From: an uncultured Gammaproteobacteria bacterium
GTDB lineage: Bacteria; Patescibacteriota; Patescibacteriia; Patescibacteriales; GWC2-42-12
Direction of reading: 5' to 3'
Length of the DNA stretch: 64,000 bases
Assembly (NCBI GenBank): GCA_964560005.1
Contig: CAZLKB010000003.1
Coordinates: forward strand, 40,712-104,711
The notes below the pieces were generated by a model, which ran no database searches, was not told the DNA's origin, and worked only from the letters and a program-made list of their open reading frames with translations. The position numbers and the translations under genes are program-made. Below, one piece after another: positions 27,711 through 43,337 of this stretch. Position 1 is the stretch's first letter, and every line of letters starts with the position of its first letter.

Positions 27711-28193
27711 ATGATTTCCATTATTTGCATCATCGCCAAAAATCGCGCCATCGGCTTTAAAAATAAGTTGCTTTACGATATTCCCGAAGATATGAAGCAC
27801 TTCAGGGAAATTACCAGCGGGCACACGGTCATAATGGGCGAAAAAACATTTCATTCCATGAACGACCGCCCTCTACCCAAACGAGTTAACATCATTTTAA
27901 CTTTGGATAAAAATTTTAGCGCGCCGAATTGCTTGGTCGCTCACTCCTTGGAAGAATCCGTTGAATTGGCCAAATCGCAAAACGATAACGAAATTTTCTT
28001 TATCGGCGGCGGCCAGATTTATAAATTGGCCTTGCCTTTGGCTGATAAATTATATCTGACCATTGTTGACGACGAGCCGAAAGAAGCCGACACTTTTTTC
28101 CCTGATTATTCTGAATTTAAAAAAGTTATATCGGAAAAAACCATGGACACGGCTAGCGGTCATAAAATAACTTTTACGGAATTAACTAGATAA
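27711..28193 (+). CDS. folA: Dihydrofolate reductase
   Basis: MISIICIIAKNRAIGFKNKLLYDIPEDMKHFREIT.. and GGGQIYKLALPLADKLYLT. It follows thyA. Confidence 0.9.
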   Translation: MISIICIIAKNRAIGFKNKLLYDIPEDMKHFREITSGHTVIMGEKTFHSMNDRPLPKRVNIILTLDKNFSAPNCLVAHSLEESVELAKSQNDNEIFFIGGGQIYKLALPLADKLYLTIVDDEPKEADTFFPDYSEFKKVISEKTMDTASGHKITFTELTR

Positions 28194-28195
28194 AT

Positions 28196-28687
28196 ATGAC
28201 CAAAACTGTAATCTGCCACGACATGTACGGTAGGCTCTATAAAGTGGACGCTAAAAAATTGACCTTTCGCCCGTCAATTTATGGTATATTAATTGAAAAA
28301 AATAAAATCTTGCTTTCAAAACAATTTGACGGCTACGATTTCCCGGGTGGTGGCGCCGAACTTCATGAAACTATTGAGCAGACTTTAAAAAGAAAATTTT
28401 GGGAAGAAACCGGCTTTAAAGTCAAACCGGTTAAGCTTATCCGCGTCGGCACTTCGTTTTTCTACGCCAGATTAAGAAAACAATACTGGAATTGCCCATT
28501 TTTTTATTTTCTGGTCAAAAAAGTTAACGGTAAATTATCAACAATAAACTTTGACGAATACGAAAAAAAATATGCAGATCTGGCCGAATGGATTGGTCTA
28601 GAGAAAATTGGCAAAATTAAATTTATTAATTCCTTTTTAGGCAATCAGGGCAGTATAAAAATAATAAAACAGGCGTTGAAAAAATAA
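28196..28687 (+). CDS. NUDIX hydrolase
   Basis: Nudix box GGGAELHETIEQTLKRKFWEETGF. Confidence 0.75.
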   Translation: MTKTVICHDMYGRLYKVDAKKLTFRPSIYGILIEKNKILLSKQFDGYDFPGGGAELHETIEQTLKRKFWEETGFKVKPVKLIRVGTSFFYARLRKQYWNCPFFYFLVKKVNGKLSTINFDEYEKKYADLAEWIGLEKIGKIKFINSFLGNQGSIKIIKQALKK

Positions 28688-35794: not shown

Positions 35795-36883
35795 TTATAT
35801 TCCCAACTCCCTCAGCATTTCTTTTTGCTTTCTTGACAAACTGGTCGGAATTTTAACGATTATTTCCACTAAGTGATCGCCCCTGGAACTGCTATGTATA
35901 TGCGGCACGCCCTTGCCTTTAAGCCGAATCACTCGGCCCGATTGCGTGCCTTCGGCGATTTTTAATTCCACCGGACCGTCAACCGTTTCCACATCAATTT
36001 TTCCGCCTAAAGCCGCCAGCGCTATATTAATTTCAGCTTTTGATAAAATATCAAAGCCGTCACGCGCGAATCTTCTATCCGGATTGACCCTAACCTTTAC
36101 ATATAGATCTCCAGCCTGGCCGCCCTTGGCTACGGCTTCGCCTTGCCCGGCGAATCTTAAAGTTTCTTCATTGTCAATTCCGGCCGGAATCTTAATTTTT
36201 AAAACGGCTATCTCGTGGATTACGCCCGAGCCTCGGCATTGTTTGCATTTTTCTTTAATAATTTTACCTTCACCGTGGCAGGCGGTACAAGTAGTTTGCA
36301 CCTGCACATTACCTAAAATTGTTCTCTGCATTTTAGTCACCCTGCCCGTACCGCGGCAGGTTGGGCAGGTCTCCGCACCAATGCCGGGTTCGGCGCCCGA
36401 GCCCTTGCACCTAGAGCAACTGACGGCTTTTTTTAAACTAATTTCCCGCTCTACGCCGAAAATCGCCTCTTTAAAATCAATATTTAGGATTACTTCGATG
36501 TCTCGTCCGCGGCTTGCCCGCCGCCGCCCTGATCGGCCACCTTCACCAAAACCAAAAATATCGCCAAAGCCGCCGAAAATATCGCCCAGGTCGTCCATGT
36601 TGATGTTAAAGCCCTGGCCACTGTCAAAACCGCTGAAACCGGAAAAGCCTCCGCCCCCGCCTGACCGCGCCTGTTCAAAAGTTTGGCCATATTGGTCATA
36701 TTGGGATCGTTTCGCGGAGTCGCTTAAAACCTGATAAGCCTCATTCAGCTCCTTAAACTTGGCTTCGTCGCCGCCCTTTTTATCCGGGTGGCACTCGTGA
36801 GCTTTTTTCCGAAAAGCCTTTTTGATTTCATCTTGATTAGCACCCTTACTCACGCCGAGAATATTGTAGTAGTCTTTGGACAT
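35795..36883 (-). CDS. dnaJ: Chaperone DnaJ
   Basis: J domain with HPD (KAHECHPDK), G/F-rich region and four CxxCxGxG zinc-finger repeats. Confidence 0.95.
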   Translation of the reverse strand: MSKDYYNILGVSKGANQDEIKKAFRKKAHECHPDKKGGDEAKFKELNEAYQVLSDSAKRSQYDQYGQTFEQARSGGGGGFSGFSGFDSGQGFNINMDDLGDIFGGFGDIFGFGEGGRSGRRRASRGRDIEVILNIDFKEAIFGVEREISLKKAVSCSRCKGSGAEPGIGAETCPTCRGTGRVTKMQRTILGNVQVQTTCTACHGEGKIIKEKCKQCRGSGVIHEIAVLKIKIPAGIDNEETLRFAGQGEAVAKGGQAGDLYVKVRVNPDRRFARDGFDILSKAEINIALAALGGKIDVETVDGPVELKIAEGTQSGRVIRLKGKGVPHIHSSSRGDHLVEIIVKIPTSLSRKQKEMLRELGI

Positions 36884-36972
36884 AATTTATTTAATCATCA
36901 GTGTATTGATTGACAGAAATCAACTATCTATGATAATATAAAATCACTAATCTCAACAAAAGGAATAAGACA

Positions 36973-37098
36973 ATGAAATTCGTAATTATCGGGTTTTGCA
37001 TTCTCGTCGTGTTCGGACCGTTTATTATGGCGCTCCTTAAGGCGGCAAGCAAGCCAATGCCGTCACCAACCCCGCCCGACGATCGTCGGGATCTCTGA
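36973..37098 (+). CDS. Small GC-rich membrane peptide (41 aa), hypothetical
   Basis: MKFVIIGFCILVVFGPFIMALLKAASKPMPSPTPPDDRRDL. Opposite strand to its neighbours and followed by a terminator. Confidence 0.3.
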   Translation: MKFVIIGFCILVVFGPFIMALLKAASKPMPSPTPPDDRRDL

Positions 37099-37110
37099 GC
37101 GGACGAATGT

Positions 37111-37166
37111 CCCGCTTAACGCCCGCACGATTTCCATCAATTTGGCGATCAGGCGGGCTTTTTTTA
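37111..37166 (+). terminator. Candidate terminator (gcccgc ... gcgggc stem plus T run)
   Basis: gcccgcacgatttccatcaatttggcgatcaggcgggc followed by ttttttt. The long loop makes this uncertain. Confidence 0.4.
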
Positions 37167-37200
37167 TTCGCTAAATTCGTTATAAATCAGCCCCTATTCG

Positions 37201-37809
37201 CTATTTACTTCTTTTCCGTAAACTCCCCTTCAATCGGTCCTTGATCCTTTTTCTTATTTCTTCAGTAAATACTCGCTTGGAGATTTCAGTATAAAATTTA
37301 TTATTTTTGATTCTAAAATCGCACATTGATGCCCGGCCGGCTTTATAATATTTTAAATCGGCTTCAAACTGTTCCTTGAAAGAATCGGATAAAGCATCGG
37401 CATCAATTAAAATTCTTTTATTTATCTCTCTAGGGTTAGTGAATTTATGCGCCTTTATTATCTCGGCAACTTTCTTAATTTTTCTCGGTTCATAATTAAG
37501 TTCGCGCAAAACTTTAGCCGCGATTATGGCTGAATATTTAAGATGCAATTTTAACGCCTTAATTCTATCTTTTTTGTCTTGGCTTTTCTGCAACTTCTTA
37601 GAAACCTTGCTCCAGCCGATGTCATGTAAAATTGCCGCCGGTATAAGCAGACTTTCGTCGCCTATGCCAGACTTAATTATTATTTCCATGGCCTTAACCA
37701 CGCCCTTAACATGCGTAAGATCTTTTTCTCTTCCGGCTTTTATGTAAGGCAGAGCTAATTTCCAGATTTTTTGGTATTGTTTGTCCATTTTTTTATTTAG
37801 TCGCGACAA
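37201..37809 (-). CDS. HD-domain phosphohydrolase
   Basis: H...HD motif (LLIPAAILHDIGWSK). The C-terminal 15 codons are encoded by a 44-bp copy of the dnaK 3' end read in another frame. Confidence 0.75.
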   Translation of the reverse strand: MSRLNKKMDKQYQKIWKLALPYIKAGREKDLTHVKGVVKAMEIIIKSGIGDESLLIPAAILHDIGWSKVSKKLQKSQDKKDRIKALKLHLKYSAIIAAKVLRELNYEPRKIKKVAEIIKAHKFTNPREINKRILIDADALSDSFKEQFEADLKYYKAGRASMCDFRIKNNKFYTEISKRVFTEEIRKRIKDRLKGSLRKRSK

Positions 37810-38590
37810 CTATCATATCCTCCGATTTCTCGTTGTACAATTTACCTCTCCAATCGGCATAAACTTCGCATGATTTAAACCCAACGCGTCTACACAATTT
37901 TACGAACTCATCTTTCGTGTAAACCTGAACGGAATAATCTTTTCTTTCTCTTCTCCCATCATTTTTTAACAAAATCCATGAACCGTTTATCCTCTTGGCA
38001 ATATCGTTATAGTTTTCCACTATTTTAAGTTTATCGCCGGATTTAAGAATTCTTATCTCGTTAAGTTTATATTCGCCGTTCACAATTCTCGGGATATTTA
38101 CATCAGTATGCATTAAAAATTTTCCGCCTGGTCTTAATGCCTTAAAGAAATTCATCAAAACTTTGTAATTGTCTTCTTCCTTATCAAAAAACCCAAACGA
38201 AAAAAACATATTTATGACTGCATCAAACTCGGAGTCGTATTTTATATCAATCATGTTCTCCTTGATAAATTCTACTTTAACAAGATCTTCCCTGGCGGCA
38301 ACTTTGGCTTTTTCTAAATGATAAGAATTAATATCCGACCCAGTCATCTTAAAACCTTTTTTGGCTAAACTAATACTGTGTCGGCCGTAGCCACAGGGAA
38401 TATCCAATATACGAGCGTCCGGTTGCAAGTTTAACAGCTTAATCACGCCTTTTACTTCCGCGTCAGTCCGTTGCCCCAGATTTTGTTTTTCACCTGAAAG
38501 ATACCCTTCTTTTGAATCATCCCCTTGCATATAAAAACGACCGAAAAATCCGTATTTTTCTTGCCACCAAAAAGTTTTTTTATTTGTCAT
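37793..38590 (-). CDS. Class I SAM-dependent methyltransferase
   Basis: Motif I ILDIPCGYGRHSISLAKKG. The start is taken at MTNKKTFWW (38590); the ORF-track extension to 38689 overlaps the dnaK 3' end. Confidence 0.8.
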   Translation of the reverse strand: MTNKKTFWWQEKYGFFGRFYMQGDDSKEGYLSGEKQNLGQRTDAEVKGVIKLLNLQPDARILDIPCGYGRHSISLAKKGFKMTGSDINSYHLEKAKVAAREDLVKVEFIKENMIDIKYDSEFDAVINMFFSFGFFDKEEDNYKVLMNFFKALRPGGKFLMHTDVNIPRIVNGEYKLNEIRILKSGDKLKIVENYNDIAKRINGSWILLKNDGRRERKDYSVQVYTKDEFVKLCRRVGFKSCEVYADWRGKLYNEKSEDMIVVATK

Positions 38591-38603
38591 AACAAAAAAT
38601 TTG

Positions 38604-40568
38604 TTATTTCTTTTCCGTAAACTCCCCTTCAATCGGCCCTTGATCTTTTTTCTGTTCGCCTGCTCCTGACCCGGGTTGCGCGCCGGCATTCGCCTGTTCT
38701 GATCCTGGTATAGGTCCGGTACTTTGCGCTCCTTGGGCGGATTGCGCCGACTGATACATAGCCGCGCCGATCTTTTGCGCCGTAGTATTTAATTCTTCCA
38801 TCTTCTTTTTTATCTCATCAAACTTATCGCTATCTTTTACCTTCTTTAAGGCCTCAACTTTTTCTTCCAATTCTTTCTTATCTTCAGGCTTAACCTTATC
38901 TCCAGCCTCTTTCAGCATTTTTTCCGTTTGGAAAATTACGGCCTCGGCCTGATTTTTGATTTCCACCTGTTCTTTTTTCTTTTTGTCTTCCTCGGCGTGC
39001 AGTTCGGCTTCCTTTTTCATTTTTTCCACTTCTTCTTTAGATAAACCGGAAGAAGCGGTAATGGTAATTTTTTGCTCCCTGCTCGTAGCCTTATCTTTGG
39101 CTTTAACATTTAAGATGCCGTTGGCGTCAATATCAAAAGAGACTTCCACTTGCGGAATGCCGCGAGGCGCCGAGGGTATGCCGTCCAAAATAAATCTGCC
39201 CAAAGTCTTATTATCCCCGGCCATCGGCCGCTCGCCCTGTAAGACATGGATTTCCACGCTGGTCTGACCGTCGGCCGCAGTGGAGAAAACTTGCGACTTT
39301 GAAGTCGGGATCGTGGTATTTCGTTCAATTAAAGGCGTGGCCACGCCGCCCAGAGTTTCAATGCCCAGAGTTAAAGGAGTTACATCTAATAGTAAAACAT
39401 CTTTAACATCGCCCTGGAGAACCCCGGCTTGCACGGCCGCGCCTAAGGCCACGACCTCGTCAGGATTGACAGTCAAATTCGGCTCCTTGCCGAAAAATTC
39501 TTTAACCGTCTTTAAGACTAAGGGCATGCGGGTCATGCCGCCGACCATGAGTACTTCCTCTATATCTTTTACATCAACGCCAGCGTCTTTAAGCGCGGCT
39601 CTAACCGGAGCGATGGTCGCGGCCACTAAGTCGCCGGTCAGCTCTTCTAATTTCGCTCTGGTCATCTTCATGACTAAGTGTAAGGGCCGGCCGCTCGGGT
39701 CAACCGTAATAAACGGCTGATTGATTTCGGTTTCCGGCATAGTGGATAACTCAATCTTTGCTTTTTCCGCCGCTTCTTTTATTCTTTGGAGAGACAAGGG
39801 GTCTTTAGATAAGTCTGCGCCTTGATCTTTCTTAAACTGTTCAATAATCCATTTAATTATCCTTTGATCAAAATCGTCGCCGCCTAAGTGCGTATCGCCG
39901 TTCGTAGATTTAACTTCTACCGTGTCCGAACTGACATCCAAAATGGAAATATCAAAGGTTCCGCCGCCTAAATCGTAAACCGCGATTTGCTGACCCTTCT
40001 TCTTTTCAAAGCCGTAAGCTAGCGCGGCTGCGGTCGGCTCGTTTATGATTCTTTTTACATCTAAGCCGGCAATGCGCCCAGCGTCCTTGGTCGCTTGCCT
40101 CTGCGCGTCATTAAAATAGGCTGGTACGGTTATGATCGCTTCGGTGATTTTCTCGCCGATCTTGGCTTCAGCGTCGGCTTTCAACTTGGCCAGTATCATG
40201 GCCGAAATTTCCTGCGGCGTGTATTCTTTCGCCTGCCCAGAGCCTGCCGAAGGGCCGATTTTCACTTTAACGCCGCCATTAGCTTTAATAATTTTATACG
40301 GCATAACTTTCAAATCGCGCTGGACTTCTTCATCTTCAAAACTGCGGCCGATTAACCGTTTAATAGAAAAGATAGTGTTTTCCGGATTGGTTACGGCTTG
40401 GCGCTTGGCCGACATGCCGACCAATCGTTCGCCGTTTTTCGTAATCGCGACAATAGAGGGCGTGGTTCTCATGCCTTCAATGTTTTCAATGATTTTCGGT
40501 TGTCCGCCTTCGATTATCGCCATGGCGCTGTTGGTAGTGCCTAAATCAATACCTAATATCTTACTCAT
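38604..40568 (-). CDS. dnaK: Chaperone DnaK (Hsp70)
   Basis: [18 protein letters not shown], the EEVD-less C-terminus and full-length Hsp70 architecture. Confidence 0.97.
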
Positions 40569-40599: not shown

Positions 40600-40971
40600 T
40601 TAATTTTTTCTGATGGGCTTCTTGGTAAAAATTATTTTGCTTTTTTGATTTTTTGCTTTTTCACGAATAAAATCATATTTAGGATCGTCCGTTAAGTCAG
40701 CCAAGTTGTATATCATTCTTTTTATATCATGCGGACCCGGCGCATCTCCTAACTCTTCACATTGCCTTAAAATTATTTCAATTTCATTTGCAGGTAGCGA
40801 ATGAATATAAGCCATTTCAGTACTTATAGCACAATCTTGCCATTCAGGTTTTATGGCTTTTTTTAATGCCGCCATATCTGCATCTGAAATTTGCAAGGTT
40901 CTCTCCTCAAGTTCTGCCATAAAAGCCATATCTGAAGGAAAATTTGGTTTATTCTTGATGATTTCTTTCAT
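40600..40971 (-). CDS. Hypothetical protein (123 aa) co-transcribed upstream of dnaK
   Basis: Clean ORF ending 29 nt before the dnaK start. No family recognised. Confidence 0.5.
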   Translation of the reverse strand: MKEIIKNKPNFPSDMAFMAELEERTLQISDADMAALKKAIKPEWQDCAISTEMAYIHSLPANEIEIILRQCEELGDAPGPHDIKRMIYNLADLTDDPKYDFIREKAKNQKSKIIFTKKPIRKN

Positions 40972-41020: not shown

Positions 41021-41452
41021 TTATTTCTTCGCCGTCTTAATCTTAATCGTCTTTGGTTTGGCTTCCGGCGCCTTAGGTACGGCTATTTTCAGTATGCCAT
41101 TAACCGCTTCGGCCGAAGCTTTTTCGCCGATTACATGGGTCGGCAAGGGCACGCTTCGGTAAAAACTACCGCGCCTGATTTCTTTCCGATAATAATTTTT
41201 GTCTTCCACTTCGCTTTTCTTTTCGTTTTCACCCTTGATGATTAAAACATCATTTTCAATGGAAATGTCCACTTTTTCCGGGTCAATCCCGGCTAATTGC
41301 GTTTCCACATAGACTTTATCCTTATCCTGATAAATGTCCACGGCCGGAACCAAGCCGGTAAAACCGCCCCGAGCGGGCATGTAGTCGTCAAACATTTTGT
41401 CCATGTCCTCGAATGGTTCAAGGAATGGCGTCCACTTAATTATCGGTAACAT
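41021..41452 (-). CDS. Small heat shock protein (Hsp20/alpha-crystallin family)
   Basis: Alpha-crystallin domain (PAVDIYQDKDKVYVETQLAGIDPEKVDISIENDVLIIKGE...FYRSVPLP). Confidence 0.9.
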   Translation of the reverse strand: MLPIIKWTPFLEPFEDMDKMFDDYMPARGGFTGLVPAVDIYQDKDKVYVETQLAGIDPEKVDISIENDVLIIKGENEKKSEVEDKNYYRKEIRRGSFYRSVPLPTHVIGEKASAEAVNGILKIAVPKAPEAKPKTIKIKTAKK

Positions 41453-41510: not shown

Positions 41511-41660
41511 ATAATTTAAAATGTAAATCTCAAAATGTAAAATGACAGTTGAAAATGCAAAATGTCTAAATTAATAATTTTAAACTTTACATTGTCATTG
41601 CTCTGCAATGACCCCGCATCTGCGGGGTGCTAGCGGAGCTAGCATTTTACATTTTGATTT
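41511..41660. repeat. Family A palindromic element carrying an inserted GC-rich hairpin, between grpE and hsp20
   Basis: aaaatgtaaatctcaaaatgtaaaatgacagttgaaaatgcaaaatg...actttacattgtcatt plus ctctgcaatgaccccgcatctgcggggtgctagcggagctagc. Confidence 0.65.
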
Positions 41661-41661
41661 T

Positions 41662-42525
41662 TTAACTTTTCATTTTATAAACTACCACCTTGGCCGCTTC
41701 TATCACCTTGCCATTAAGCTTATACCCGGCCTTCATCTCGCGAGCCACTTTGCCATCCAATTTTTTATCATCCGTTTCTTCGTTCTGTATGGCTTCCATG
41801 GTATTATGATCAAATTTTTCTTCCGCGGTTTTAATTTCCGTTACCCCGATTTTTTCCAAAACATCCTTAAATTGCTTAACCACATGCTTAACGCCGGTTA
41901 GCCATTCGTCCGCCGACTCATTATTATGATGTTCAATAGCCATCTTTAAATGATCGTAAACCGGTAAAATTTCTTTTAGCATTATTTCATTGGCAAACAT
42001 GGCGAACTCCATTTTTTCCTTAGCCGTCTGCTTCATTAAATTCTGATAATCAGCCAAAGCGCGCTTATATAGCCCCTCGTGATCGTTCTCTCTGGCTGTA
42101 ATAAATTTTTCCACGCTGACTCTGGTGTAAGGGTTTAATTCTAATTCTTTTAGAGCTGTCTCCGGCTTAATCCATTTATATTCTTCCATCTCCCTATTCT
42201 TCTCGGCCATCTTTCCGCCGGCCAGATGGGCGCTATAATCCAAAAAAACAAAATGAACTTTTCTTTCAAATTCTTTTGGATAAACGCAGTCCTGCAGGTC
42301 GTTAAATTTTATATTATCAATTTCCAAGCCGGTTTCTTCTCTAATTTCCCGCTTTAAAGCTTGCTCGCAGGTTTCACCTAATTCAACATGGCCGCCCGGA
42401 ATCTGCCAGTATGCTCCCCACTTTGAAGATTTGGTTAATAAAATTTCGTCCTGATTATTATAAATTATCGCCGCCACTACGGTTTCCGGATATTTTTTAT
42501 CGCTCTTTTTTATTTCTTCCGCCAT
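41662..42525 (-). CDS. grpE: Nudix hydrolase domain fused to nucleotide exchange factor GrpE
   Basis: N-terminal Nudix box (GGHVELGETCEQALKREIREETGL, residues 44-67). C-terminal GrpE helical pair and beta domain (PVYDHLKMAIEHH...FDHNTMEAIQ...GYKLNGKVIEAAKVVVYK). Position between hrcA and dnaK. Confidence 0.8.
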   Translation of the reverse strand: MAEEIKKSDKKYPETVVAAIIYNNQDEILLTKSSKWGAYWQIPGGHVELGETCEQALKREIREETGLEIDNIKFNDLQDCVYPKEFERKVHFVFLDYSAHLAGGKMAEKNREMEEYKWIKPETALKELELNPYTRVSVEKFITARENDHEGLYKRALADYQNLMKQTAKEKMEFAMFANEIMLKEILPVYDHLKMAIEHHNNESADEWLTGVKHVVKQFKDVLEKIGVTEIKTAEEKFDHNTMEAIQNEETDDKKLDGKVAREMKAGYKLNGKVIEAAKVVVYKMKS

Positions 42526-42526
42526 A

Positions 42527-43213
42527 TTATTTCTCTATTAAAATATCATTAATAAATTTTACTAACGCTAAGTTTTTTTCATAATTCATCCTCATCGGCC
42601 CTAATACTCCCACTAATCCGACATTATCGCCCAACCGATATTTCGTAATAATGACACTACAATAAGCGCCGAACGGATTTTTCGCGCCCAGCATAATCTG
42701 CGTCCCGAATTTTAAATCATTAAAAATGCGGCCGATGATTTCATCCAGGCGATCAATCAAGCCGGAAATATCATAAATCATATCGGCTTGGGAAAATTCC
42801 GGCTGATGCAAAAGGTTGGAAACCCCGGTGTAATATAAATTATGCTTGTGGAAAGCCCAGAAAATCGCGTTGCCGGAAATTTTTGCCATAATCTTGGCCG
42901 CTTGCTTAAAGCTCATTTCTTCCTTCTTGGCCAAGATTTCTTTAAAAATTTTTGCTTCGCTTTCGCTTAACTTCTTTTCGCTTAAGTTTTCCAAATAAAA
43001 ATTATAGGCTTTTTCCGTCGGGATGCGGCCGGCCGAAGTATGCGGCTGGGCGATGTATCCGGCTTCTTCCAGGTCCGCCATTTCATTTCTAACCGTGGCC
43101 GAAGAAATGTCCAAATTATACTTTTCCACCAAGCCTTCAGAACCGATGGGCATAGCGGTTTTTATGTATTCTTTGATTATGGTCTTTAGTATTAATTCCT
43201 TGCGTTTGTCCAT
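42527..43213 (-). CDS. hrcA: Heat-inducible transcription repressor HrcA (short form)
   Basis: N-terminal wHTH (ELILKTIIKEYIKTAMPIGSEGLVEKYNLDISSATVRNEMADLEEAGYI). A CIRCE operator sits upstream. Confidence 0.85.
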   Translation of the reverse strand: MDKRKELILKTIIKEYIKTAMPIGSEGLVEKYNLDISSATVRNEMADLEEAGYIAQPHTSAGRIPTEKAYNFYLENLSEKKLSESEAKIFKEILAKKEEMSFKQAAKIMAKISGNAIFWAFHKHNLYYTGVSNLLHQPEFSQADMIYDISGLIDRLDEIIGRIFNDLKFGTQIMLGAKNPFGAYCSVIITKYRLGDNVGLVGVLGPMRMNYEKNLALVKFINDILIEK

Positions 43214-43297
43214 AGATTTGTCCCCCTTCTAATCGGGGGATTTTCCCCAGAGGCGGATCCGCCTTCGGCGGAAAGGGGGTTTAATATCCTTGTTTCC

Positions 43298-43326
43298 ATT
43301 ATATAAAACATTAGCACTCCTGTCAA
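43298..43326 (-). promoter_or_regulatory. Sigma70 promoter of the hrcA operon (TTGACA-N17-TATAAT on the minus strand) overlapping CIRCE
   Basis: Minus-strand -35 ttgaca (complement of 43321-43326) and -10 tataat (complement of 43298-43303), 17-nt spacer. Confidence 0.55.
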
Positions 43327-43337
43327 GAGAGTGCTAA
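43311..43337. promoter_or_regulatory. CIRCE operator (HrcA binding site), perfect inverted repeat
   Basis: TTAGCACTC-CTGTCAAGA-GAGTGCTAA matches the CIRCE consensus TTAGCACTC-N9-GAGTGCTAA exactly. Confidence 0.85.

What the first reader, a model, noticed from the sequence alone, without database searches (positions are those of the whole stretch)
41662..42525. Nudix hydrolase domain fused to the N-terminus of GrpE
The ORF between hrcA and hsp20/dnaK is 287 aa. Residues 1-130 form a complete Nudix fold with the canonical box GGHVELGETCEQALKREIREETGL. Residues about 140-287 are a recognisable GrpE (paired helices plus C-terminal beta domain, FDHNTMEAIQ...GKVIEAAKVVVYK). A nucleotide-pyrophosphatase domain covalently attached to the DnaK nucleotide-exchange factor is, as far as I know, not a standard architecture. 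It could couple local nucleotide hydrolysis (ADP-ribose or Ap4A, or similar) to chaperone cycling.
Basis: partly seen in the sequence, partly recalled or inferred. Interest (0 to 1): 0.6.

Follow-up and report, generated by a model that had tools for sequence, protein, structure and literature searches.

The report
Nudix hydrolase fused to GrpE co-chaperone
This ultra-small (Patescibacteria) bacterium makes its DnaK helper protein GrpE with a nucleotide-cleaving Nudix enzyme in place of the usual floppy N-terminal tail; the fusion is real, old and widespread in that group, no paper in the searched library describes it, and what the extra enzyme does for the chaperone is unknown.

Summary
Confirmed. 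Window 41662-42525 (-) is one uninterrupted 287-aa ORF. It holds a Pfam NUDIX domain (aa 15-132, E 8e-24, exact Nudix box) and a Pfam GrpE domain (aa 149-284, E 7e-34). It sits in a CIRCE/HrcA heat-shock operon: hrcA, nudix::grpE, hsp20, orf, dnaK, then dnaJ further on.

It is not a frameshift artefact. About 170 distinct homologues from NCBI, JGI, ENA and Logan assemblies share the architecture, down to 30% identity. Those I examined lie in the same operon position. All named ones are Patescibacteria (Falkowbacteria, Kuenenbacteria, Magasanikbacteria, Parcubacteria).

The Nudix module replaces E. coli GrpE residues 1-53, the disordered tail and the distal coiled coil. It ends about 7 residues before the conserved coiled-coil motif that contacts the DnaK substrate-binding domain and linker.

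Both domains are under strong purifying selection near the window lineage. However, about 10 of 48 divergent lineages carry a catalytically dead Nudix. Sister forms carry DUF1653 instead, so the N-terminal module also seems to matter structurally.

The substrate is unknown. The closest relatives are MutT/NudI-like NTP pyrophosphohydrolases. Direct coupling of hydrolysis to the DnaK cycle is untested and is not favoured by the geometry. I found no paper describing the fusion. Verdict: a new variant of a known kind, of moderate interest.

The parts
43311..43337 (.). CIRCE operator (HrcA binding site), TTAGCACTC-N9-GAGTGCTAA with 0 mismatches
   Evidence: the only match in the 64 kb window, against 0.01 expected by chance.
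43298..43326 (-). Sigma-70-type promoter, TTGACA-17 nt-TATAAT (12 of 12 matches). The -35 hexamer lies inside the CIRCE spacer.
42527..43213 (-). hrcA, an unusually short form of 228 aa
   Evidence: Pfam HrcA, 81 bits. TIGR00331, 197.0 bits against a cutoff of 197.2.
41662..42525 (-). nudix::grpE fusion ORF, 287 aa plus stop codon
42133..42486 (-). Nudix domain, aa 14-131
   Evidence: PF00293, E 8e-24; alpha/beta fold. Foldseek best matches are NudI 6dt3 and 3oga, TM-score 0.75-0.80 when normalised to the target.
42325..42393 (-). Nudix box, aa 45-67 (G45, E51, R59, E60, E63, E64)
   Evidence: E51 is invariant, and R59, E60, E63 and E64 are kept in at least 90% of 111 fusion homologues.
42082..42132 (-). 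Connector, aa 132-148: the last Nudix helix plus a short break. It is the least conserved segment, but its length is nearly fixed.
   Evidence: the distance from W118 to A156 is 37-43 residues in 103 of 111 sequences; helix at aa 132-146.
41665..42081 (-). GrpE domain, aa 149-287: coiled-coil and four-helix-bundle helices plus the beta domain
   Evidence: PF01025, E 7e-34; aligns to E. coli GrpE 1dkg residues 54-196 (E 2e-13) and to G. kaustophilus GrpE 4ani.
42028..42069 (-). Block YKRALADYQNLMKQ (aa 153-166, nearly invariant). It corresponds to E. coli GrpE L63-R75, the coiled-coil motif that contacts DnaK SBD loop 1 and the interdomain linker.
   Evidence: for conservation and mapping; PMC12915176 for the role of the E. 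coli motif.
41021..41452 (-). hsp20 (small heat-shock protein). It also follows the fusion in relatives.
40600..40971 (-). 123-aa ORF with no Pfam match, between hsp20 and dnaK
   Evidence: not similar to the ORF at the same position in L089.
38604..40568 (-). dnaK. The interdomain linker ([15 protein letters not shown]), SBD loop 1 (RNTTIP) and FDIDANGIL are conserved.
   Evidence: HSP70, 848 bits. The motifs were read from the translation.
35795..36883 (-). dnaJ, separated from dnaK by a methyltransferase gene and a 202-aa ORF
   Evidence: tblastn with the DnaJ of L081, 73% identity..

Best explanation
This is the organism's working GrpE, the nucleotide-exchange factor of DnaK. Its disordered N-terminal tail and distal coiled coil have been replaced by a catalytically competent MutT/NudI-like Nudix pyrophosphohydrolase.

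The protein is made from a CIRCE/HrcA-repressed heat-shock operon together with Hsp20, DnaK and DnaJ. GrpE works as a homodimer, so each GrpE dimer would carry two Nudix modules. They sit directly below the conserved coiled-coil motif that touches the DnaK substrate-binding domain and linker.

I infer that the module has two roles. The first is enzymatic: it hydrolyses a free nucleotide-type substrate to NMP. The substrate is most likely a non-canonical or surplus (d)NTP/NDP-X, and possibly a stress dinucleotide. The activity would be co-induced with, and stoichiometric to, the chaperone machine. The second is structural: it fills the place of the tail and stalk next to the DnaK SBD.

Coupling to DnaK would come from co-expression and co-localisation, not from channelling the ADP that GrpE expels.

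Shown: both domains, an intact catalytic motif, purifying selection, operon context and clade-wide conservation. Inferred: exchange-factor activity, hydrolase activity, substrate class and position relative to DnaK.
For: Domains and fold:
- Both domains are well above their curated thresholds, and the model is confident for both.

GrpE hallmarks:
- The block Y153-Q166 corresponds to E. coli L63-R75.
- G211 corresponds to E. coli G122, whose G122D change inactivates GrpE. G211 is invariant in 111 homologues (PMC12915176).
- This is the only GrpE-like ORF in the 64 kb window.
- It occupies the canonical slot between hrcA and dnaK, behind a perfect CIRCE and promoter.
- The partner motifs in DnaK are conserved.

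Nudix module:
- The box is exact. E51 is invariant and R59, E60, E63 and E64 are kept in at least 90% of sequences. N23, W36, H91, E112 and W118 are conserved outside the box.
- dN/dS against two close relatives is about 0.06-0.08 for Nudix and 0.04-0.06 for GrpE.
- The nearest solved relatives are NudI, AtNUDX1, the Rickettsia MutT-like enzyme, NUDT15 and MutT.
- The nearest non-GrpE relatives are fused to a phosphoribosyltransferase plus a nucleoside phosphorylase, or to a HAD phosphatase. These are nucleotide-salvage contexts.

Conservation of the fusion:
- All of the best 120 clusters at 90% identity are fusions, as are 53 of the top 150 representatives at 50% identity, down to 30% identity.
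- The operon context is the same in distant members.
- The junction has a nearly fixed length.
- Pairwise divergence of the Nudix and GrpE domains is correlated (Mantel r = 0.33, 0 of 999 permutations reach it), and the fused Nudix domains mostly form one cluster.

Geometry:
- The module ends about 7 residues before the SBD/linker-contact motif (PMC10803776; PMC12915176).
Against: - There are no biochemical data on any member, so neither activity has been shown.
- No curated Nudix subfamily model reaches its cutoff (MutT 51 against 98 bits, NudI 49 against 95, NudC 57 against 158). The substrate class is therefore a guess.
- About 10 of 48 divergent lineages have lost the catalytic residues yet keep the domain. 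Catalysis is thus not what holds the fusion together everywhere.
- Stand-alone GrpEs (L001, L002, L009, L021) nest among the fusions in an unsupported NJ tree, so the module is dispensable in some lineages.
- The rest of the genome could not be searched for a second GrpE.
- The inter-domain geometry of the model is uncertain (pTM 0.57), and no dimer or DnaK complex was modelled.
Confidence: 0.55

Rival explanations
1. Regulatory sensor. The Nudix module mainly binds a nucleotide ligand (an alarmone such as Ap4A/NpnN, ADP-ribose or an NAD metabolite) and tunes how GrpE acts on DnaK, that is, exchange rate or substrate release. Hydrolysis would act at most as a timer. This would be analogous to the non-catalytic or slow Nudix sensor domains in NrtR, DBC1 and TRPM2-NUDT9H.
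For: - The module sits where E. coli GrpE has its regulatory parts: the thermosensing coiled coil and the SBD-binding tails (PMC12915176 and PMC10803776).
- Catalytic residues have been lost several times while the domain is retained, and W118 stays invariant even in the dead forms.
- The junction is short and of fixed length.
- Non-enzymatic Nudix sensors are an established class (PMC5389931).
- Ap4A was reported to crosslink to DnaK, GroEL and ClpB (Johnstone and Farr 1991, as reviewed in PMC10148737).
Against: - In the window lineage and in about two thirds of divergent lineages the full catalytic set is under strong purifying selection. A pure binder would not need that.
- In the dead forms the other conserved pocket residues (H91, E112, W36) are also lost. 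That looks more like a structural remnant than a preserved ligand site.
- No ligand has been identified.
Confidence: 0.17
2. Direct coupling. The Nudix module acts on the nucleotides of the DnaK cycle itself, for example by degrading released ADP or damaged adenine nucleotides so they cannot rebind. Alternatively it removes a nucleotide-derived modification such as ADP-ribosyl or AMP from DnaK.
For: - The enzyme is covalently tethered to the factor that opens the DnaK nucleotide cleft.
- It belongs to the NTP/NDP-hydrolysing branch of the Nudix family.
- The fusion is conserved over deep divergence.
Against: - The attachment point is at the SBD/linker end of the coiled coil, opposite the beta domain that opens the cleft.
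- Dead-Nudix lineages, DUF1653-GrpE forms and plain GrpE forms exist within the same clade, so the DnaK cycle runs without this activity.
- Plain ADP and ATP are atypical Nudix substrates. This last point rests on general knowledge and was not tested.
Confidence: 0.13
3. Passenger or scaffold only. The Nudix fold is kept as a folded cap that replaces the distal coiled coil and tail, for dimer stability or as a steric or thermosensing element. Any residual hydrolase activity would be irrelevant to fitness, or the fusion would be a neutral by-product of genome streamlining.
For: - The Nudix domain evolves about three times faster than GrpE at long range: pN 0.43 against 0.15 in the comparison with P0063, and mean pairwise identity 0.31 against 0.39.
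- Catalytic residues have decayed repeatedly.
- In a sister group the module is replaced by the unrelated small domain DUF1653.
Against: - dN/dS is about 0.06-0.08, and the metal-binding glutamates are nearly invariant in the window's own subclade. This argues that catalysis is selected there.
- A neutral passenger would not persist down to 30% identity with a fixed-length junction.
Confidence: 0.13
4. Artefact. Two adjacent genes, a Nudix gene and grpE, were merged by a sequencing or assembly frameshift or by a lost stop codon in this assembly.
For: None was found. Raw reads were not available.
Against: - The same single ORF occurs in about 170 distinct sequences from independent NCBI, JGI, ENA and Logan assemblies.
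- The DNA-level loci L081-L090 each show one ORF.
- The junction length is conserved.
- The loci with a stand-alone GrpE have no adjacent Nudix gene, so a split version is not the norm.
Confidence: 0.02

Closest known systems
Canonical bacterial GrpE (E. coli GrpE, PDB 1DKG; G. kaustophilus 4ANI; M. tuberculosis 8GB3)
   Same: - It has the coiled-coil motif, the four-helix-bundle helices and the C-terminal beta domain.
- The counterpart of E. coli G122 is present.
- It lies in the hrcA-grpE-dnaK operon under CIRCE control.
   Different: - It lacks the acidic disordered N-terminal tail and about 20 residues of the distal coiled coil (E. coli residues 1-53). A 130-aa Nudix enzyme domain takes their place.
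- It scores below every NCBIfam GrpE equivalog cutoff (best 76.8 against 137 bits).
MutT/NudI/NUDX1-type small Nudix NTP pyrophosphohydrolases (K. pneumoniae NudI 6DT3; A. thaliana NUDX1 6DBY/5GP0; R. felis MutT-like 4KYX)
   Same: - A single-domain Nudix fold of about 130 aa with an exact Nudix box.
- About 30% identity, Foldseek probability 1.0 and target-normalised TM-score 0.7-0.8.
   Different: - It does not reach the curated cutoff of any subfamily.
- It is covalently joined to GrpE.
- The conserved residues outside the box (N23, W36, H91, W118) define its own subgroup.
- The substrate is unknown.
Non-catalytic or sensor Nudix domains (NrtR, DBC1, TRPM2 NUDT9H), as reviewed in PMC5389931
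   Same: A Nudix fold attached to a protein with another function. Some fusion lineages have lost the catalytic residues.
   Different: The window protein and most of its relatives keep a complete catalytic motif. No ligand is known.
Other GrpE proteins with extra domains (Anabaena All4144, GrpE plus HTH; bioRxiv 10.1101/2025.04.14.648684, abstract only)
   Same: It shows that GrpE can carry an accessory domain.
   Different: The accessory domain there is a DNA-binding HTH, not an enzyme, and the lineage is unrelated.

Membership tests
GrpE (Hsp70 nucleotide-exchange factor, PF01025) | Profile match above the curated threshold, reaching the C-terminal end of the domain | tested here: met
   117.3 bits against 25.8, profile positions 30-165 of 165.
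GrpE (Hsp70 nucleotide-exchange factor, PF01025) | Conserved coiled-coil motif that contacts the DnaK SBD and linker (E. coli L63-R75) | tested here: met
   Y153-Q166 aligns to it, and A156, A158, D159, Y160 and N162 are invariant in 111 homologues. The role of the motif is taken from PMC12915176.
GrpE (Hsp70 nucleotide-exchange factor, PF01025) | Glycine equivalent to E. coli G122 (the G122D change abolishes function) | tested here: met
   G211 aligns to position 122 of 1DKG. That position reads D; from memory, 1DKG was crystallised with the G122D mutant. G211 is invariant.
GrpE (Hsp70 nucleotide-exchange factor, PF01025) | Long helix, second helix and C-terminal beta domain | tested here: met
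   helices at aa 149-198 and 207-225, strands at aa 228-285, pLDDT about 80-95.
GrpE (Hsp70 nucleotide-exchange factor, PF01025) | Acidic disordered N-terminal tail with a hydrophobic SBD-binding motif (E. coli 17-IIM-19) | tested here: not met
   Only 13 residues (MAEEIKKSDKKYP) precede the Nudix fold, and there is no hydrophobic triplet flanked by Glu. This feature is variable between GrpEs and does not define family membership.
GrpE (Hsp70 nucleotide-exchange factor, PF01025) | NCBIfam GrpE equivalog score | tested here: not met
   the best hit, NF010738, scores 76.8 bits against a cutoff of 137. The models are clade-specific and this GrpE is divergent.
GrpE (Hsp70 nucleotide-exchange factor, PF01025) | Position in an hrcA-grpE-dnaK heat-shock operon | tested here: met
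   The same holds in relatives.
GrpE (Hsp70 nucleotide-exchange factor, PF01025) | Homodimer that accelerates ADP release from DnaK | not testable with these tools
   Needs biochemistry.
Nudix hydrolase (PF00293) | Profile match above the curated threshold | tested here: met
   84.6 bits against 21.1.
Nudix hydrolase (PF00293) | Nudix box GX5EX7REUXEEXGU with the metal-binding glutamates | tested here: met
   aa 45-67 match exactly; conserved across the family.
Nudix hydrolase (PF00293) | Alpha/beta/alpha Nudix fold | tested here: met
   the 50 listed Foldseek PDB matches are all Nudix enzymes, with target-normalised TM-scores up to 0.80.
Nudix hydrolase (PF00293) | Assignment to a characterised specificity subfamily (MutT, NudI, NudC, NudG, NudB) | tested here: not met
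   all are below their cutoffs (51.4 against 97.9; 48.9 against 95; 57.2 against 158; 43.7 against 156; 42.9 against 103).
Nudix hydrolase (PF00293) | X-loop specificity markers about 16-17 residues after the box: Pro for ADP-ribose, Tyr for ApnA, SQPWPFPQS for NADH (PMC5389931) | tested here: inconclusive
   Y82 and P83 are both present in the window protein. P83 is kept in 74 of 111 sequences and Y82 in 29 of 111. There is no NADH motif. These markers are weak predictors.
Nudix hydrolase (PF00293) | Pyrophosphohydrolase activity | not testable with these tools
   Needs an enzyme assay.
HrcA/CIRCE heat-shock regulon | CIRCE inverted repeat overlapping the promoter, with hrcA as the first gene | tested here: met
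   a perfect 9-N9-9 repeat at 43311-43337 overlaps a 12-of-12 promoter. hrcA starts about 90 nt downstream.

The most novel reading that the evidence does not exclude
The Nudix module is a nucleotide-alarmone switch or timer (Ap4A/NpnN, ADP-ribose or a damaged adenine nucleotide) built into the Hsp70 exchange factor. Ligand occupancy or hydrolysis at the SBD-facing end of GrpE would gate substrate release by DnaK. This would be the first metabolite-controlled GrpE. It would also be a 'Rosetta stone' link between stress dinucleotides and the DnaK cycle, bearing on the old observation that Ap4A binds DnaK. The DUF1653-GrpE sister forms would then point to a chaperone-related role for DUF1653.
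Probability: 0.12. Interest if true: 0.8.

Novelty: new variant of a known kind. Interest (0 to 1): 0.5.

Why it matters
GrpE's N-terminal region is now understood as the part that talks to the DnaK substrate-binding domain and sets temperature-dependent substrate release (PMC12915176, PMC10803776). A whole clade of ultra-small bacteria has swapped that region for a folded nucleotide hydrolase. Sister lineages carry a dead copy of it or DUF1653 in the same place.

This is a natural experiment on what the GrpE N-terminus is for. It could also connect nucleotide housecleaning or alarmone metabolism physically to the Hsp70 cycle.

It is directly testable. The protein is small and soluble-looking, and its partner DnaK is encoded about 1 kb away.

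There is also a practical point for annotation. These proteins are labelled only as 'GrpE' (or, in some JGI records, only as 'nucleoside triphosphatase'), so one of the two activities is hidden in every record.

Tried and rejected
- **GTDB genome scan.** It therefore gave no taxonomic survey. It did yield verified stand-alone GrpE and Nudix relatives and the DUF1653-GrpE forms.
- **afdb50 fold search.** The library was unavailable, so I could not list UniProt/AFDB entries with the same full-length fold.
- **Cluster-member look-up for distant fusions.** Only one organism name came back (Magasanikbacteria). The taxonomy of the 30-35% identity members rests on operon context and on clustering of the GrpE domain.
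- **Literature (full-text checks).** Nothing on a Nudix-GrpE fusion.
- **Mapping of E. coli G122.** The PDB 1DKG chain also has D there. From memory, that crystal used the G122D mutant, so the mapping to G211 stands.
- **Is the 123-aa ORF between hsp20 and dnaK conserved?** It has no tblastn match to the ORF at the same place in L089, so I dropped it as a part of the system.
- **Fused from adjacent genes?** Loci with a stand-alone GrpE (L001, L002, L009, L021) have no Nudix gene nearby, and L007, with a stand-alone Nudix, has no GrpE nearby. I found no split intermediate.
- **Second structure prediction of a dead-Nudix member.** I considered it and did not run it. With the shared alignment it would not be an independent test of fold retention.
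- **Model coordinates.** They are not exposed by the tools, so I could not measure inter-domain distances or dock the model onto DnaK.
Full report
**1.

Window 41662-42525 on the minus strand is a single ATG-initiated ORF of 287 codons with no internal stop. Its start lies 1 nt after the hrcA stop codon.

Pfam places a NUDIX domain at aa 15-132 (84.6 bits, E 8e-24). It places a GrpE domain at aa 149-284 (117.3 bits, E 7e-34), matching profile positions 30-165 of 165.

An AlphaFold2 model built on 111 homologues is confident (mean pLDDT 88.6). It shows:
- a Nudix alpha/beta domain at aa 14-127;
- a connector helix at aa 132-146;
- a 50-residue helix at aa 149-198;
- a second helix at aa 207-225;
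- a beta domain at aa 228-285.

The 50 listed Foldseek hits in the PDB are all Nudix enzymes (NudI, the NudC catalytic domain, NUDT15, NUDX1, MutT). By sequence, the C-terminal half aligns to E. coli GrpE (1DKG) residues 54-196 (E 2e-13) and to G. kaustophilus GrpE (4ANI).

**2. Context**

A perfect CIRCE operator (TTAGCACTC-N9-GAGTGCTAA) lies at 43311-43337. It is the only match in the window, against 0.01 expected by chance. It overlaps a perfect TTGACA-17-TATAAT promoter about 90 nt upstream of hrcA.

The transcription unit reads hrcA (228 aa), nudix::grpE, hsp20, a 123-aa ORF, and dnaK. A methyltransferase gene and a 202-aa ORF follow, and then dnaJ at 35795-36883. The fusion is therefore the grpE of a classical HrcA-controlled heat-shock operon.

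No other GrpE-like ORF exists in the 64 kb window. There is one further, stand-alone Nudix ORF at 28190-28684.

**3. It is not an artefact, and it is not rare**

All of the best 120 homologues (clusters at 90% identity, down to 45% identity) carry both PF01025 and PF00293, except P0081. P0081 is listed with GrpE only and has a degenerate Nudix box. The proteins are about 272-313 aa long and come from NCBI, JGI, ENA and Logan assemblies.

In an exhaustive search of 1.84 billion representatives at 50% identity, 53 of the top 150 are two-domain fusions, down to 30% identity.

DNA-level loci for close and distant members (84%, 74%, 56%, about 33%, about 33% and about 30% identity) each show one ORF. 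In each it lies between a short hrcA and dnaK, usually with hsp20 after it and dnaJ nearby.

The distance from the invariant W118 in Nudix to the invariant A156 in GrpE is 37-43 residues in 103 of 111 sequences. All members that carry an organism name are Patescibacteria: Falkowbacteria, Kuenenbacteria, Magasanikbacteria, or Parcubacteria / Patescibacteria group. NCBI records call them simply 'nucleotide exchange factor GrpE'. Some JGI records call them 'nucleoside triphosphatase'.

**4. Anatomy relative to canonical GrpE**

The alignment to 1DKG maps the nearly invariant block Y153-Q166 (YKRALADYQNLMKQ) onto E. coli L63-R75. Recent work identifies that motif as the part of the coiled coil that contacts DnaK SBD loop 1 and the interdomain linker (PMC12915176; M. 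tuberculosis contact regions II and III, PMC10803776).

G211, invariant in the family, aligns to E. coli G122, whose G122D mutation inactivates GrpE. The DnaK encoded about 1 kb downstream keeps the linker ([15 protein letters not shown]), loop 1 (RNTTIP) and the FDIDANGIL segment.

What is missing is the equivalent of E. coli residues 1-53. That region comprises the acidic disordered tail and about 20 residues of distal coiled coil. The tail transiently occupies the DnaK substrate cleft and promotes substrate release (PMC12915176, PMC10803776). The distal coiled coil is part of the thermosensor. Here only 13 residues precede the Nudix fold.

The Nudix module ends about 7 residues before the SBD/linker-contact motif. 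In a DnaK complex, the two Nudix modules of the dimer should therefore sit beside the SBD and linker. They would not sit at the beta-domain end, which pries open the nucleotide cleft. This placement is an inference from alignments and published structures. I could not model the complex.

**5. Is the Nudix module an enzyme?**

In the window's subclade the answer is very likely yes:
- E51 is invariant, and R59, E60, E63 and E64 are kept in at least 90% of 111 homologues.
- Further residues outside the box are conserved: N23, W36, aromatic 40, H91, E112 and W118.
- dN/dS against two close relatives is about 0.06-0.08 for Nudix and 0.04-0.06 for GrpE. Synonymous sites are near saturation, so these values are approximate.

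Across the whole family the picture is mixed. Of 48 full-length representatives at 50% identity, 31 keep the full catalytic set. About 10 are severely degenerate (for example P0139, P0144, P0148, P0152, P0163, P0174, P0180), yet they retain the domain and W118. Over long distances the Nudix half also diverges faster than the GrpE half.

**6. Which Nudix?**

No curated subfamily model reaches its cutoff. The nearest solved proteins by sequence and by fold are small MutT-like NTP pyrophosphohydrolases:
- NudI;
- A. thaliana NUDX1;
- NUDT15 and NUDT18;
- MutT;
- a Rickettsia MutT-like enzyme.

The classical Nudix Ap4A hydrolases are absent from the top matches, apart from weak hits to RppH and Ndx1.

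The closest non-GrpE relatives are themselves fused to nucleotide-salvage enzymes. One is a phosphoribosyltransferase-NUDIX-nucleoside phosphorylase ORF in a Falkowbacteria MAG (L004, 48% identity). Others are HAD phosphatase-NUDIX proteins in Verrucomicrobia.

The X-loop carries both Y82 and P83. P83 is kept in 74 of 111 sequences and Y82 in 29 of 111, which does not discriminate between specificities (markers from PMC5389931).

My best guess is an NTP/NDP-X to NMP housecleaning or salvage activity. The substrate is open.

**7. Evolution**

Pfam confirms three sister architectures on the same GrpE backbone:
- NUDIX-NUDIX-GrpE, about 450 aa;
- DUF1653-NUDIX-GrpE, about 345 aa;
- DUF1653-GrpE, about 205 aa.

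Fused Nudix domains mostly cluster together, away from stand-alone Nudix proteins. Pairwise divergence of the two halves is correlated (Mantel r = 0.33, 0 of 999 permutations reach it). Both results are consistent with an old fusion that was inherited vertically.

In a neighbour-joining tree of the GrpE domain (134 columns, no support values), verified stand-alone GrpEs nest among the fusions. These are L001, L002, L009 and L021, whose ORFs are bounded by upstream stops and have no Nudix gene nearby. The dead-Nudix, DUF1653-NUDIX and DUF1653 forms cluster together in that tree.

This suggests repeated decay, replacement or loss of the N-terminal module. It needs a properly supported phylogeny before it can be claimed.

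**8. Interpretation**

With about 0.55 confidence, I read this as a bifunctional heat-shock protein. It is a working GrpE whose N-terminal tail and stalk were replaced by an active MutT/NudI-like Nudix enzyme. The enzyme is co-induced with, and parked on, the DnaK machine next to the SBD.

The recurrent retention of dead copies and the fixed-length junction argue that the module also has a structural role at that position.

The rivals are:
- a ligand-sensing regulatory module (0.17);
- a scaffold or passenger (0.13);
- an artefact (0.02).

The Ap4A idea has a literature hook, since Ap4A crosslinks to DnaK, GroEL and ClpB (reviewed in PMC10148737). It has no support from the sequence relationships found here.

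**9. Novelty**

The sequences are in public databases with both Pfam domains precomputed, so the architecture is not undiscovered data.

I found no description of it in the searchable literature. That includes a clan-wide Nudix review and a 2025 review of GrpE-like exchange factors. No functional study of it turned up either.

I rate it a new variant of a known kind and of moderate interest. It is well suited to a short biochemical study, because the N-terminus of GrpE is currently the focus of mechanistic work.

Noticed in passing
window 42527-43213 (-); also L084-L090: HrcA is unusually short throughout this clade: 228 aa here and 228-247 aa in relatives, against 338 positions in the TIGR00331 profile. 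It matches TIGR00331 in two separate stretches and scores 197.0 bits against a cutoff of 197.2. A middle portion appears to be missing.
   Followed up: partly
P0143, P0177, P0178; L003:5863-6483, L005:5758-6483, L006:5803-6483, L008:5890-6510; P0086, P0111: Sister GrpE proteins carry DUF1653 (PF07866) at the N-terminus instead of Nudix (about 205 aa), or in front of it (about 345 aa). This is the first functional hint I know of that links this domain of unknown function to the DnaK system. Its only solved relative is 3BE3, an 'uncharacterized protein'.
   Followed up: partly
P0141, P0161, P0164, P0010 (about 450 aa): Tandem NUDIX-NUDIX-GrpE proteins exist in the same family.
   Followed up: partly
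L004:3-1853 (Falkowbacteria MAG JABMQE010000011.1): The closest non-GrpE relative of the Nudix module (48% identity) lies inside a three-domain ORF: phosphoribosyltransferase, NUDIX and PNP_UDP_1 nucleoside phosphorylase. This may be a fused nucleotide-salvage enzyme. The ORF starts at the contig edge.
   Followed up: partly
L012-L015, L019 (Verrucomicrobia); L036 (Hydrogenibacillus): Related Nudix domains are fused C-terminally to HAD-family phosphatases. In L015 the stop-to-stop frame also matches an MFS transporter upstream, so two adjacent genes may share that frame.
   Followed up: no
window 28190-28684 (+): A second, stand-alone Nudix ORF of 165 aa (PF00293, E 6.5e-13, with a weak Nudt16-like hit). 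The fused Nudix is therefore not the only Nudix enzyme in this genome.
   Followed up: partly
window 41608-41648 and 43225-43285: GC-rich hairpins stand out in this 41% GC sequence. Between the grpE stop and hsp20 there are CCCCGCA-TC-TGCGGGG followed by TGCTAGC-GGA-GCTAGCA. Several more lie in the hrcA leader between the CIRCE/promoter and the start codon. They may be RNA processing, stability or attenuation elements.
   Followed up: no
window 35795-38689 (-): dnaJ (35795-36883) is separated from dnaK by a class I SAM-dependent methyltransferase gene (37793-38689) and a 202-aa ORF (37201-37809). The annotated methyltransferase ORF overlaps the dnaK 3' end by 86 nt, so its true start is probably internal. 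In several relatives dnaJ follows dnaK directly or after one or two small ORFs.
   Followed up: partly
L090:1176-1808 (-): In the relative that carries P0008, another Nudix gene (210 aa) sits divergently just upstream of hrcA, next to the PBP2 gene.
   Followed up: no
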